Shown one piece after another: positions 4,977-64,000 of a stretch of DNA of 64,000 bases (its first letter is position 1; the number at the start of each line of letters is the position of its first letter). Below the pieces are notes generated by a model. The model was not told where the DNA came from. It searched no databases and was given only the letters and a program-made list of their open reading frames with translations. This DNA is from Escherichia coli (GTDB lineage Bacteria; Pseudomonadota; Gammaproteobacteria; Enterobacterales; Enterobacteriaceae): the NCBI RefSeq assembly GCF_013315695.1, contig NZ_CP054353.1, one strand, 5' to 3'. Made by a program: the position numbers and the translations under genes.

Positions 4977-5127
4977 ATGACCTTTGGATAACCCTTTTTA
5001 TGCTCCGTGAAAGCGATCACAAAGGGACTCTGCAATACTTGTTTGCGGAGGATGTTTGTGATCCTGTTTTGTAGTGCGATTAATCCGTGTACAATAACGC
5101 GCTATTTCTAATGCCTGAGGCAAAGTT

Positions 5128-62195: not shown

Positions 62196-62208
62196 TCTCT
62201 TCCATGCA

Positions 62209-62235
62209 GAGGCGCCGCAAGGCGCCTTATTTTTT
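62209..62235 (+). terminator. Rho-independent terminator of zapB
   Basis: ggcgcc-gcaa-ggcgcc hairpin followed by ttatttttt. Confidence 0.75.
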
Positions 62236-62950
62236 ACTTCACTGCATTTTTAGCGGAAAGCATAATCTCCATCGCCTGTTGGCGATATTTATCTGCCGTA
62301 TCTGGCGCCATTAATGCAATGATCCCCACAGCCCTGGGGGTGTCTTCAAGATAAACACTGATGGTTCTTTTCTGCTGACCATCAAAATTTATCAACACAT
62401 CCTGATACTTACAGGTGAAATGTTTGGCATTACAATCATGAAACTGGAAGGCTTCCTCATTGTATTGATCCTTGAGATTGTCTCGCTGCTTCTTCTTTAA
62501 CGCTTCCAGCGGGTCATCGGCGCTACGTCCTGCGGGCAGACGGAAAGCAGAAATGAAGACGCTATTATCCTCACTTCTTATATCAATGGTTTTATTAGTA
62601 CTAATGGAAACCGTATTCCAGTGTCGGTTCGGGATAGTCACGGTTATCGCAGCATTCTCAAAGGTATATTGCCACGGGGTAAACATACGAAACGTATTGC
62701 CGACTTTGGATAAAAGCAGGATTCCCAATACCCAACAGCACCCGCGAGTAAAACTGGCGAAGTTACGTGTTTTTTTAATAAATGCGCACAGAATACCTGA
62801 CACAAGCACGGGAAGTAACAACGGCCCCAGAAATACTGAACCGATATACTCGCCAACCATGCCAGGATCTCCAGACAGTAGGTTGCTGTGCTGAAGATGA
62901 CTAAGAAAAGTAGTTATTATCCATAGTATTAATAAGATAACGTATCTCAT
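62234..62950 (-). CDS. hypothetical membrane protein (3 predicted N-terminal TM helices plus C-terminal domain), paralog A; accessory
   Basis: 238-aa ORF with RBS aaggga; hydrophobic segments near 3-19, 35-58, 70-83; shares W.YTF..ITVT.P and H.C....F.C.YQ motifs with the upstream ORF; AT-rich. Confidence 0.6.
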   Translation of the reverse strand: MRYVILLILWIITTFLSHLQHSNLLSGDPGMVGEYIGSVFLGPLLLPVLVSGILCAFIKKTRNFASFTRGCCWVLGILLLSKVGNTFRMFTPWQYTFENAAITVTIPNRHWNTVSISTNKTIDIRSEDNSVFISAFRLPAGRSADDPLEALKKKQRDNLKDQYNEEAFQFHDCNAKHFTCKYQDVLINFDGQQKRTISVYLEDTPRAVGIIALMAPDTADKYRQQAMEIMLSAKNAVK

Positions 62951-62982
62951 ATCAATCCCTTATTATTAACATACACATCAGA

Positions 62983-63669
62983 TTATTGATGGGCAGAAAG
63001 TATCATTTTCATTACTTCTTCTTGATATTCGTCCAAATAATCTGGGTCGATAGCTGCGACCAGTCGTATCAAATTAGTGTTATCCAGTAGAGTCATGAAA
63101 ATAGCATGTCTTATTTTGCCATCACTCATTGTTTGAATTCCTTCCTGATAAGCGCAGGCAAATCCCTTAACATCACAAACATGCATTTCTGCAGTTCCGT
63201 TTTGAGTCGCGGTAAGTTCCTCGATTGAATGCACACCGAGTTCATTTTGTGAGAAGGCAACAATAACTAAAATAGCATGGGCATCCCGAGTCACCAGGAT
63301 TGGTCCTTGTTTTACTATATTGGCAACCCACTGTTTGCTCGGAACTGTGACGGTGATACCTGGCCCCGGGAAAGTATAATCCCATGTGCTGTGTCGTTCC
63401 CACACTGTATAGCTGCTATAGATAAGAAATAATCCCATTAACCAACAAGTGCCGCGAATAAAGCTGTGGCTGCTTCTTTTTTTTATCGTTATACAGATGA
63501 TTGTGGCGATAATAAATGATAAGGCAAGTGGGTTAAAAAATACGTTAGCAAAATATAAAATCATTTCACCCGTGTTGCCAGACAAAAGGAATTTGTAGCG
63601 GAAATGGTTAACGACTATAAGTAATAAATATATAAATAAAAGAATAATATTCTGCATGAATACGTCCAT
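62983..63669 (-). CDS. hypothetical membrane protein, paralog B of the preceding ORF; accessory
   Basis: 228-aa ORF with the same architecture and motifs as paralog A (HVCDVKGFACAYQ vs HDCNAKHFTCKYQ); start may be the ATG at 63657; AT-rich. Confidence 0.55.
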   Translation of the reverse strand: MDVFMQNIILLFIYLLLIVVNHFRYKFLLSGNTGEMILYFANVFFNPLALSFIIATIICITIKKRSSHSFIRGTCWLMGLFLIYSSYTVWERHSTWDYTFPGPGITVTVPSKQWVANIVKQGPILVTRDAHAILVIVAFSQNELGVHSIEELTATQNGTAEMHVCDVKGFACAYQEGIQTMSDGKIRHAIFMTLLDNTNLIRLVAAIDPDYLDEYQEEVMKMILSAHQ

Positions 63670-63671
63670 GT

Positions 63672-63700
63672 ATAAAAAAGGGGAATTTAATTCCCCTTTT
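63672..63700. terminator. bidirectional-type terminator hairpin downstream of rraA
   Basis: aaaaaa-ggggaatttaattcccc-tttt. Confidence 0.65.
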
Positions 63701-63716
63701 AACGCATGGCAGGTAC

Positions 63717-64000
63717 TTATTCAATATCCAACGGATCTTCAGAAAGAATAATCCCGGTATTGTCGGCATAAAGATGGTCGCCGGAGAAGAAGGTGACACC
63801 GCCAAAATTGACGCGGACATCGCTTTCGCCAATGCCTTCGCCAGCGGCACCGACTGGAATTGCTGCCATCGCCTGGATGCCGATATCCAGCTCTTCCAGG
63901 TCATCTACCTGACGCACCGCGCCGTAAATGACCAGGCCTTCCCATTCATTTTGTACTGCCAGACGCGCCAGTTCAGCATCGACCAGTGCGCGACGAACAG
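63717..64000 (-). CDS. rraA: RNase E inhibitor RraA (partial, 5' end outside window)
   Basis: C-terminal translation ...[66 protein letters not shown]; stop at 63717; ORF remains open to window end. Confidence 0.85.

What the first reader, a model, noticed from the sequence alone, without database searches (positions are those of the whole stretch)
63640..63720. Paralog B start codon abuts the rraA terminator, leaving no room for its own promoter
The rraA stop is at 63717, the terminator-like hairpin (ggggaatttaattcccc plus U-run) spans about 63672..63700, and the first ATG of paralog B is at 63667..63669 (alternative ATG at 63655..63657). Neither ATG has an obvious Shine-Dalgarno sequence. 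Expression of the paralog pair would therefore need read-through of the rraA terminator or a promoter inside the rraA 3' region. The hairpin may instead be part of a 5' leader, or paralog B may be poorly expressed or a pseudogene.
Basis: seen in the sequence. Interest (0 to 1): 0.35.

Follow-up and report, generated by a model that had tools for sequence, protein, structure and literature searches.

The report
Conserved leaky terminator between rraA and neighbour
A small terminator hairpin sits between the E. coli gene rraA and an uncharacterised membrane-protein gene, an arrangement kept in Salmonella and another enterobacterium, so the downstream gene pair is most likely expressed by transcription leaking through that terminator; this is a tidy but fairly ordinary kind of operon design.

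Summary
rraA stops at 63719..63717 (-). A hairpin (63696..63680) with a U6 run (63679..63674) follows 20 nt later. The first ATG of paralog B is 4 nt after the U run.

The real start is almost certainly the second ATG (63657). It aligns with the N-termini of all homologues, has a minimal GGA Shine-Dalgarno sequence 7 nt upstream, and the first ATG is missing in Salmonella.

B and A are real genes. dN/dS is about 0.2 and dS equals that of rraA. They are intact in 659 of 5426 complete E. coli genomes. Each has three transmembrane helices and a PsbP/DUF1795-like domain.

The layout stop, 20 nt, hairpin, U6, AUAYAWGGAYGUAU, AUG is kept in E. coli, E. albertii, Salmonella and an unnamed enterobacterium, although the proteins are only 36-51% identical. 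Family genes that stand alone have spacers of 180-390 nt instead.

No convincing promoter lies between rraA's 3' part and B. The hairpin is weaker than K-12's rraA terminator.

Best reading: B-A is a 3' appendix of the rraA transcript, fed by partial read-through. Translational coupling may add to this, because the hairpin flanks occlude the SD strongly in Salmonella and L021 but not significantly in E. coli.

No TSS or 3'-end data settle it. It is a new member of a known kind, of moderate interest.

The parts
63717..64000 (-). 3' part of rraA (runs off the window end); stop codon TAA at 63719..63717
   Evidence: PGAP: ribonuclease E activity regulator RraA
63697..63716 (-). 20-nt 5' flank of the hairpin (GUACCUGCCAUGCGUUAAAA). 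The A-tract pairs with the U-tract. CCAUG and AGUAC can pair with CAUGG and GUAUU upstream of B's start.
   Evidence: Its sequence evolves near neutrally against Salmonella (10/20 differences). The pairing is not significant in E. coli.
63680..63696 (-). Terminator-type hairpin GGGGAAU-UAA-AUUCCCC (7 bp, 3-nt loop)
   Evidence: Stem dG is -8.4 kcal/mol, or -12.8 with the A/U extension. It is kept in Salmonella (GGGGGA...UCCCCC) and in L021 (GGGGAAA...UUUCCCC, a U-A to A-U swap).
63674..63679 (-). U6 tract of the terminator. It is also the start of the family's conserved A/U-rich leader UUUUAUACAAGGAU.
63665..63669 (-). AUGGA: degenerate Shine-Dalgarno motif (GGA at 63667..63665, 7 nt before ATG2). 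Its first three bases form the spurious ATG1 (63669..63667).
   Evidence: orthologues have AAGGA or AUGGA at the same place
62983..63657 (-). Paralog B CDS, 224 aa: three TM helices plus a PsbP/DcrB/DUF1795-like domain. The true start is ATG at 63657.
63545..63581 (-). Promoter-like CTGGCA-18-TATATT inside B (63581..63552), with a TSS mapped at 63545 (EDL933 5007791) in stationary M9 only
   Evidence: scan; Cappable-seq supplement of PMC10469882
62951..62982 (-). 32-nt B-A spacer with SD AAGGGA 5 nt before A's ATG
62234..62950 (-). Paralog A CDS, 238 aa (29% identical to B). PGAP's start at 62860 cuts off a conserved first TM helix.
62209..62228 (.). GC hairpin between A and zapB. It has a U-run only on the + strand, so it is the zapB terminator; on the A strand no U-run follows.
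63684..63712 (-). Best, but weak, promoter candidate: CTGCCA-17-TAAATT (8/12). The -10 lies in the hairpin loop and the predicted TSS is near 63677.
   Evidence: The -35 is not kept in Salmonella and the -10 is not kept in L021.

Best explanation
The rraA-B junction is a compact, conserved intercistronic element. B has no promoter of its own, so B-A is expressed as a 3' extension of the rraA transcript. According to the literature, rraA is transcribed from PrraA, which is sigma-S dependent and induced in stationary phase.

Shown:
- RNA polymerase leaving rraA meets a modest intrinsic terminator: a 7-bp stem and a U6 run, 20 nt after the stop codon.
- B starts at ATG 63657 behind a weak GGA Shine-Dalgarno sequence and an A/U-rich leader.
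- A follows 32 nt after B with a better SD.

Inferred:
- Most polymerases stop at the terminator, giving the abundant monocistronic rraA mRNA.
- A fraction reads through and carries B and A, so the hairpin sets a low B-A : rraA ratio.
- In read-through RNA, the stretch just after the rraA stop codon can pair with the SD region of B. This puts the rraA stop and the B start at the base of one irregular stem of about 21-25 bp. A ribosome finishing rraA would melt the outer pairs and free B's SD (translational coupling). This layer is well supported in the Salmonella and L021 orthologues but only weakly in the window's own sequence.
For: Genes are real and inherited vertically:
- dN/dS is 0.19-0.22 for B and 0.14 for A between E. 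coli and E. albertii.
- dS is 0.26, the same as for rraA.
- B is intact in 659 of 5426 complete E. coli genomes.

The junction is constrained:
- There are 0 substitutions in 51 nt between E. coli and E. albertii (P = 2.6e-6 at the rraA synonymous rate).
- There are 5 differences in 43 columns between E. coli and Salmonella, from the G-run to the ATG (P = 8e-6).
- The 20-nt 5' flank differs at 10 of 20 positions.

The same layout recurs:
- It occurs in Salmonella (B orthologue 51% identical).
- It occurs in an unnamed enterobacterium, L021 (36% identical), with a compensatory U-A to A-U swap in the stem.

Family genes not abutting a hairpin have their own long upstream regions:
- Citrobacter has 180 nt after a K-12-type terminator.
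- Atlantibacter has 386 nt and an opposite-strand nlpA.
- L024 has a ~280-nt rraA-to-gene gap.

The terminator is weaker than K-12's rraA terminator. The stem is -8.4 against -13.5 kcal/mol, and -12.8 against -17.7 with the A/U extension.

No promoter of 9/12 or better lies on the minus strand between 64000 and 63640.

rraA has its own TSS 26 nt upstream of its ATG in EDL933. PrraA is reported as its only promoter and as sigma-S dependent (PMC11288022).

SD occlusion:
- P(unpaired) of the SD region is 0.12-0.37 in all lineages.
- The flank order beats 99% of shuffles or more in Salmonella and L021.
- RNAalifold gives three nested helices, with 3 pairs changed on both sides.
Against: No transcript data cross the junction. 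The Cappable-seq sheet that would list a TSS upstream of B is truncated at 2.2 Mb in the held copy. No 3'-end mapping or expression table for ECs4855/Z5475 could be retrieved.

The U6 run plus upstream A-tract is a good terminator signature, so read-through could be very low.

A TSS inside B (63545) exists in one condition, so A at least may have another source.

In E. coli itself, the SD-occluding outer helices are no better than shuffled flanks (p = 0.12-0.22). The alifold covariation term is only -0.14 kcal/mol from three independent lineages.

A weak promoter (8/12) overlapping the hairpin cannot be excluded.
Confidence: 0.5

Rival explanations
1. A dedicated promoter overlaps the terminator. 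The -35 is CTGCCA (63712..63707) and the -10 is TAAATT (63689..63684, in the hairpin loop). Transcription would start near 63677 in the T run. The resulting short-leader B-A mRNA would lack the hairpin's 5' arm, so it would be neither terminated nor SD-occluded.
For: It is the best match on the minus strand in 64000..63640, with the key A2 and T6 of the -10 present. TAAATT is also present in the Salmonella hairpin loop. The region is AT-rich (GC 0.30-0.36).
Against: The match is only 8/12 and falls below the scan threshold. The -35 is not conserved in Salmonella (ATCCTG). The -10 is absent in L021 (loop UUUA), although the layout is conserved there. The constraint covers the whole stem and the U run, which a promoter would not need.
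Confidence: 0.15
2. The hairpin is an efficient, ordinary rraA terminator, and B is essentially untranscribed under laboratory conditions. Only occasional AT-rich intragenic promoters fire, such as the one giving the TSS at 63545. These yield A mRNA with a long leader or spurious transcripts.
For: The only TSS retrievable for the pair is internal to B. It appears in 1 of 8 conditions and matches CTGGCA-18-TATATT. The island is AT-rich. The terminator has a canonical A-tract, stem and U6. About 20 E. coli genomes, E. whittamii and the E. albertii type strain have lost B and kept A.
Against: B is under purifying selection and is as old as the flanking core genes. B's translation-initiation region is conserved to the base across Escherichia and largely in Salmonella. 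That is hard to explain for a gene that is never transcribed from upstream. A transcript from 63545 lacks the first 37 codons and both N-terminal Met candidates.
Confidence: 0.17
3. The long irregular stem from the rraA stop to the B start is a regulated device rather than a passive leak. It could be a processing site for a double-strand-specific or RraA-modulated RNase. It could also be a factor-dependent antitermination site that switches B-A on under specific conditions.
For: The stem is about 21-25 bp with internal loops in all three lineages. The MFE is far below flank shuffles in Salmonella (-32.5 against -22.1 kcal/mol). It sits next to a gene that regulates RNase E.
Against: No Rfam family matches. 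No conserved unpaired motif for a ligand or protein was seen. In E. coli the outer helices are at chance level. This is pure inference without RNA-end data.
Confidence: 0.1
4. Paralog B is a decaying pseudogene left over from a duplication of A.
For: It has a weak SD, no promoter and is annotated as hypothetical. Some lineages carry only a decayed 5' stub of B.
Against: The ORF is intact in 659 genomes and in four species. dN/dS is about 0.2. The Cys/His/Trp/Tyr pattern is invariant and shared with A.
Confidence: 0.03

Closest known systems
Intra-operon attenuating terminators of E. coli (for example the rplL-rpoB attenuator, or rpsO-pnp); recalled from general knowledge, not tested here
   Same: A Rho-independent hairpin with a U run lies between two same-strand genes. 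The downstream gene has no strong promoter of its own. The likely role is to set a lower level for the distal genes.
   Different: Here the start codon lies only 16 nt after the U run, so the U run doubles as the A/U-rich leader. The distal genes are accessory and are absent from about 88% of E. coli genomes. No read-through measurement exists.
Translational coupling by SD occlusion (for example the long-range pairing that makes MS2 replicase translation depend on coat-gene translation); general knowledge
   Same: The sequence next to the upstream gene's end is complementary to the downstream SD. A ribosome on the upstream cistron would open it.
   Different: The occluding helix encloses a terminator hairpin. 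It is strong only in the Salmonella and L021 orthologues, and in E. coli it is at chance level.
K-12 and Citrobacter rraA terminator (AAAGGCACCGCAAGGUGCCUUUUUU)
   Same: It is in the same position just after rraA and has the same A-tract/stem/U-tract design.
   Different: It has a different sequence and is about 5 kcal/mol more stable. In K-12 it is terminal and faces zapB. Homology with the window breaks exactly at the rraA and zapB stop codons.
PsbP-like / DcrB / DUF1795 / Tsi3 / EagT6 fold proteins
   Same: The C-terminal ~135 residues of B model as this alpha/beta sandwich (Foldseek E = 6e-6 to PsbP; also DcrB, Tsi3 and EagT6). One UniRef entry names an A-type member as DUF1795.
   Different: There are three N-terminal TM helices. 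No Pfam or NCBIfam hit appears, even at E <= 1. The function is unknown.

Membership tests
Rho-independent (intrinsic) terminator | G+C-rich stem-loop immediately followed by a run of U | tested here: met
   7-bp stem (4 G-C pairs), 3-nt loop, then U6 followed by AU
Rho-independent (intrinsic) terminator | Placed shortly downstream of a stop codon on the coding strand | tested here: met
   20 nt after the rraA TAA. The spacing is 19-20 nt in Salmonella, L021 and L024.
Rho-independent (intrinsic) terminator | RNA 3' ends at the U run, or measured termination | not testable with these tools
   No Term-seq or 3'-end data could be retrieved
Intra-operon attenuator (leaky terminator feeding distal genes) | The downstream same-strand gene lacks its own promoter | tested here: inconclusive
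   No match of 9/12 or better; the best is 8/12. The gap is 16 nt. The Cappable-seq sheet of upstream TSSs is truncated in the held copy.
Intra-operon attenuator (leaky terminator feeding distal genes) | Read-through transcripts span the junction | not testable with these tools
Intra-operon attenuator (leaky terminator feeding distal genes) | Arrangement conserved together with the distal gene | tested here: met
   All B-type genes found abut the hairpin. Where B is lost, a decayed stub of its start remains behind the hairpin.
Translational coupling by SD occlusion | Sequence near the upstream stop codon is complementary to the downstream SD beyond chance | tested here: inconclusive
   Met in Salmonella (p = 0.001-0.01) and L021 (p = 0.007-0.011). 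Not met in E. coli or E. albertii (p = 0.09-0.22).
Translational coupling by SD occlusion | Downstream translation depends on upstream translation | not testable with these tools
   Needs reporter genetics
Sigma-70 promoter between rraA's 3' part and B | -35 and -10 hexamers at 16-18 nt spacing with at least 9/12 matches | tested here: not met
Known structured RNA family (Rfam) | Covariance-model match at the gathering score | tested here: not met
   The best hits score 21-25 bits against thresholds of 45-56
PsbP-like / DUF1795 (DcrB) domain proteins (for B and A) | Fold match | tested here: met
   Foldseek probability 1.0, E = 6e-6, TM (target) 0.5-0.64. The model has a mean pLDDT of 76.
PsbP-like / DUF1795 (DcrB) domain proteins (for B and A) | Sequence-profile match to the Pfam or NCBIfam model | tested here: not met
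   No such hit at E <= 1

The most novel reading that the evidence does not exclude
The whole 59-nt spacer is a purpose-built coupling device. A terminator is nested at the tip of a long irregular stem whose base joins the rraA stop codon to the B start codon. Only polymerases that escape termination produce B-A mRNA, and only mRNAs on which rraA is being translated produce B. The stem may also serve as a nuclease target, linking B-A output to RraA-modulated RNA decay.
Probability: 0.12. Interest if true: 0.55.

Novelty: new member of a known kind. Interest (0 to 1): 0.35.

Why it matters
The finding explains how an uncharacterised pair of accessory inner-membrane proteins can be expressed without a promoter. 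The pair is present in E. coli O157:H7 and in about 12% of complete E. coli genomes. The model predicts stationary-phase, sigma-S-linked, low-level expression tied to rraA. It corrects two start-codon calls: B starts at 63657, not 63669, and A starts at 62950, not PGAP's 62860. It also shows that the rraA-zapB gap is an old, polymorphic slot for this gene family across Enterobacteriaceae. As a mechanism, it is one more example of an intercistronic attenuating terminator, so the general significance is modest unless the nested coupling stem proves functional.

Tried and rejected
- A full-text search for my first guessed locus tags (Z5474/5, ECs4853-5, c4881) returned only unrelated papers.
- Supplement searches for expression or TSS values found nothing in PMC4048457, PMC5597208 or PMC4765031, and PMC7547250 has no held supplements.
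- In PMC10469882 the sheet of upstream TSSs is truncated at 2.2 Mb, so a missing TSS before B cannot be read from it.
- A metagenome scan for the non-E. coli junction variant CCCCTTTTTTATAYAWGGATGTAT found nothing.
- Pfam, NCBIfam and PADLOC gave no family for A or B.
- Rfam gave no family for the junction.
- I considered a homology link between K-12's rraA terminator and the hairpin after A. The stems are similar but the loops are inverted, so I judged it not demonstrable.
- I considered the mini-ORF ATG-CGT-TAA (63707..63699) as a leader peptide. I rejected it because it is absent in Salmonella and L021.
- I considered ATG1 as the start, because the differences before ATG2 fall mostly on third codon positions. 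I rejected this as not significant (4 of 6 changes, my hand calculation gives p about 0.1), and Salmonella lacks ATG1.
- My first shuffle test overstated the flank pairing because it scattered the A-tract. I repeated it with the A-tract fixed.

Full report
**What is at the site.** The window end is the E. coli glpK-glpF / zapB / rraA-menA-hslU region. On the minus strand, rraA ends with GAA TAA at 63722..63717. Twenty nucleotides later comes GGGGAATTAAATTCCCC (63696..63680), preceded by AAAA. After the hairpin come TTTTTT (63679..63674), ATAC, ATG (63669..63667), GAC GTA TTC, and ATG (63657..63655). The terminator scan reports the hairpin. The 17-mer is expected 0.01 times in the window. The 91-nt junction folds at -26.8 kcal/mol, z = -4.2. 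Two paralogous ORFs follow on the same strand: B runs to 62983 and A is at 62950..62234. They are 29% identical (E = 4e-30).

**Which ATG is the start.** PGAP and all database homologues start B at the second ATG, giving 224 aa. In an alignment of B-type and A-type proteins from several species, the N-terminal Met is an invariant column. The Salmonella orthologue has AAG where E. coli has ATG1. ATG1 is the first three letters of AUGGA. The same position reads AAGGA in Salmonella, Citrobacter and L013, and AUGGA in L021. It is therefore the family's Shine-Dalgarno motif, 7 nt before ATG2. The duplex energies with the 16S 3' end are as follows.

| Start site | Duplex energy (kcal/mol) |
|---|---|
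| ATG1 (63669) | +1.9 |
| ATG2 (63657) | -4.0 |
| Salmonella B | -6.1 |
| A (62950) | -5.3 |

The same alignment shows that PGAP's start for A (62860) removes a conserved first transmembrane helix. 62950 is the better call for A.

**The genes are real and old.** The B-A pair lies between the rraA and zapB stop codons in 658-659 of 5426 complete E. coli genomes, including O157:H7 Sakai (ECs4855, ECs4854) and EDL933. K-12 has instead an 84-bp spacer with a different, stronger bidirectional terminator, and homology breaks exactly at the two stop codons. About 20 E. coli genomes carry rraA, the same hairpin, an AT-rich spacer of about 190 nt and A only. So do the E. albertii type strain, E. whittamii and Escherichia sp. 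E1V33. The first 40-100 nt of that spacer are a decayed copy of B's start region. Between E. coli and E. albertii, dN/dS is 0.19-0.22 for B, 0.14 for A and 0.03 for rraA. dS is the same for all three (0.26-0.28). B is therefore not a pseudogene, and the pair was inherited vertically with its neighbours.

**What the proteins look like.** The AlphaFold model of B has a mean pLDDT of 76. It shows three N-terminal helices (the predicted transmembrane segments) and an alpha/beta domain. That domain matches PsbP (Foldseek E = 6e-6), DcrB, Tsi3 and EagT6. No Pfam, NCBIfam or PADLOC model matches. The family is small, with 35 representatives at 50% identity. Its function is unknown.

**The arrangement is conserved with B-type genes.** The layouts found downstream of rraA are listed below.

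| Locus | Organism | Layout downstream of rraA |
|---|---|---|
| L004 | Salmonella (MenA identical to a Salmonella multispecies protein) | TAA, 20 nt, GGGGGAUUAAAUUCCCCC, U6, AUACAAGGAUGUAUUU, AUG; then B (51% identical to E. coli B) and A |
| L021 | Unnamed enterobacterium | TAA, 19 nt, GGGGAAAUUUAUUUCCCC, U6, AUAUAUGGAUGUAUAU, AUG; then a B-type gene (36% identical to E. coli B, 41% to Salmonella B) |
| L014 | Citrobacter | K-12-type terminator, then 180 nt, then a stand-alone family gene |
| L019 | Atlantibacter | Opposite-strand nlpA, then 386 nt, then a stand-alone family gene |
| L024 | Same gene neighbourhood as L021 | Hairpin and a decayed B start region, within a ~280-nt rraA-to-gene gap, then a stand-alone family gene |

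The top stem pair in L021 is swapped from U-A to A-U relative to E. coli. The leader UUUUAUACAAGGAUG of the Citrobacter gene is the same as B's leader in Salmonella. B has therefore kept the family's ancestral translation-initiation region, but in place of a promoter region it has the rraA terminator. The U run serves both elements.

**Selection on the junction.** E. coli and E. albertii show no substitution in the 51 nt from CUGCC to the ATG, and one extra G. At the rraA synonymous rate, about 11 changes would be expected (P = 2.6e-6). E. coli and Salmonella differ at 5 of 43 columns from the G-run to the ATG (P = 8e-6). The 20-nt 5' flank differs at 10 of 20 positions, about the neutral rate.

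**Is there a promoter?** On the minus strand between 64000 and 63640, no -35/-10 pair reaches 9/12. The best is CTGCCA-17-TAAATT (8/12). Its -10 lies in the hairpin loop, and it would start transcription in the T run. Its -35 is not kept in Salmonella and its -10 is not kept in L021. Published Cappable-seq data for EDL933 (PMC10469882) place the rraA TSS 26 nt upstream of its ATG. For B they list a single TSS, at 5007791. This maps to window 63545, which is 112 nt inside B. It was seen only in stationary-phase M9 and appears in the sheet of TSSs downstream of annotated starts. It fits the promoter-like CTGGCA-18-TATATT found by the scan. The sheet that would list a TSS upstream of B is truncated in the held copy, so absence cannot be claimed. 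The literature describes rraA as transcribed from one sigma-S-dependent promoter in the menA-rraA spacer (PMC11288022 citing earlier work).

**Terminator strength.** The stem alone is -8.4 kcal/mol, or -12.8 with the A/U extension. The K-12 and Citrobacter rraA terminators are -13.5 (stem) and -17.7/-17.9 (extended). The U run is good: six U followed by AU. A partial terminator is plausible but unmeasured.

**A possible second layer.** In every lineage, the minimum-energy fold of the spacer is one long irregular stem. The terminator is at its tip, and the SD region of B is paired to the stretch just after the rraA stop codon. P(unpaired) of the SD region is 0.12-0.37. In Salmonella, UACAUCCU pairs with AGGAUGUA. 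In L021, AUACAUC pairs with GAUGUAU. In E. coli, the pairs are CCAUG/CAUGG and AGUAC/GUAUU. I shuffled only the distal flank and kept the A-tract fixed. The observed fold then beats 99% of shuffles or more in Salmonella (p = 0.001-0.01) and in L021 (p = 0.007-0.011), but not in E. coli or E. albertii (p = 0.09-0.22). An earlier test that also scattered the A-tract overstated the effect. RNAalifold returns three nested helices, with 3 pairs changed on both sides, but the covariation term is only -0.14 kcal/mol. A ribosome stopping at rraA would cover the first 12-15 nt after the stop codon and so open the outer helices. That would couple B translation to rraA translation. This step is inference from general knowledge of ribosome footprints.

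**Verdict.** The most likely mechanism is that B-A is a low-level 3' appendix of the rraA transcript, produced by read-through of a conserved, moderately weak terminator. B starts at 63657. I give this a confidence of about 0.5. The rivals are a weak promoter embedded in the hairpin (0.15), near-silence of B with A fed from intragenic promoters (0.17), a regulated processing or antitermination device (0.1) and a pseudogene (0.03). This is a known kind of operon architecture in a new place, attached to an uncharacterised gene family. The interest is moderate.

Noticed in passing
window 62860..62950 (-): PGAP starts paralog A at 62860 (208 aa). The 30 residues upstream, from ATG 62950 with SD AAGGGA, form a first TM helix conserved in every family member, so the annotated start is probably too short.
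   Followed up: yes
window 62196..63716; L003 1797..1880: The rraA-zapB gap is a polymorphic slot. K-12-type genomes have 84 bp with a different terminator, about 12% have B+A, and about 0.4% have A only. Homology between the alleles breaks exactly at the two stop codons.
   Followed up: yes
L011 2285..2330; L017 1500..1628; L024 311..368: Lineages lacking B keep the hairpin followed by a decayed copy of B's start region (ATG changed to ATA). B was therefore lost by internal deletion or decay rather than never having been present.
   Followed up: yes
window 62209..62228: The GC hairpin between A and zapB has a U-run only on the + strand (for zapB). On A's strand it is followed by CUGCAUGG. A transcripts may therefore not terminate cleanly and could run antisense into zapB.
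   Followed up: no
window 63545 (-), 63552..63581: A published Cappable-seq TSS (EDL933 5007791, stationary M9 only) lies 112 nt inside B, just downstream of a CTGGCA-18-TATATT match. Its transcript would lack B's first 37 codons.
   Followed up: partly
window 62983..63657 and 62234..62950 (proteins): His18, Cys55, Trp72, His159, Cys161, Cys168, Tyr170 and Gln171 (B numbering) are invariant across the 13 aligned members. Cys71 is invariant in the 7-sequence alignment and is replaced in two A-type members of the larger set. A KKR loop lies between TM2 and TM3. This suggests a periplasmic C-terminal domain with a disulfide or metal site.
   Followed up: partly
L004 5497..6072 and 4985..5016: In the Salmonella contig, a 31-aa ORF and a Y1-transposase (REP-associated type) gene lie between A and zapB. 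The A orthologue carries a triple 9-nt repeat (CCAACTATC x3, giving LSQLSQLSQ).
   Followed up: no
window 63699..63707 (-): A two-codon mini-ORF, ATG CGT TAA, sits just before the hairpin. It is absent in Salmonella and L021, so it is probably chance.
   Followed up: yes
L014 3288..3325; L003 1850..1880: Citrobacter and K-12 share the same rraA terminator (GGCACCGCAAGGTGCC). In Citrobacter, a family gene still follows 180 nt downstream. The terminator type and the presence of the gene are therefore not strictly linked.
   Followed up: partly
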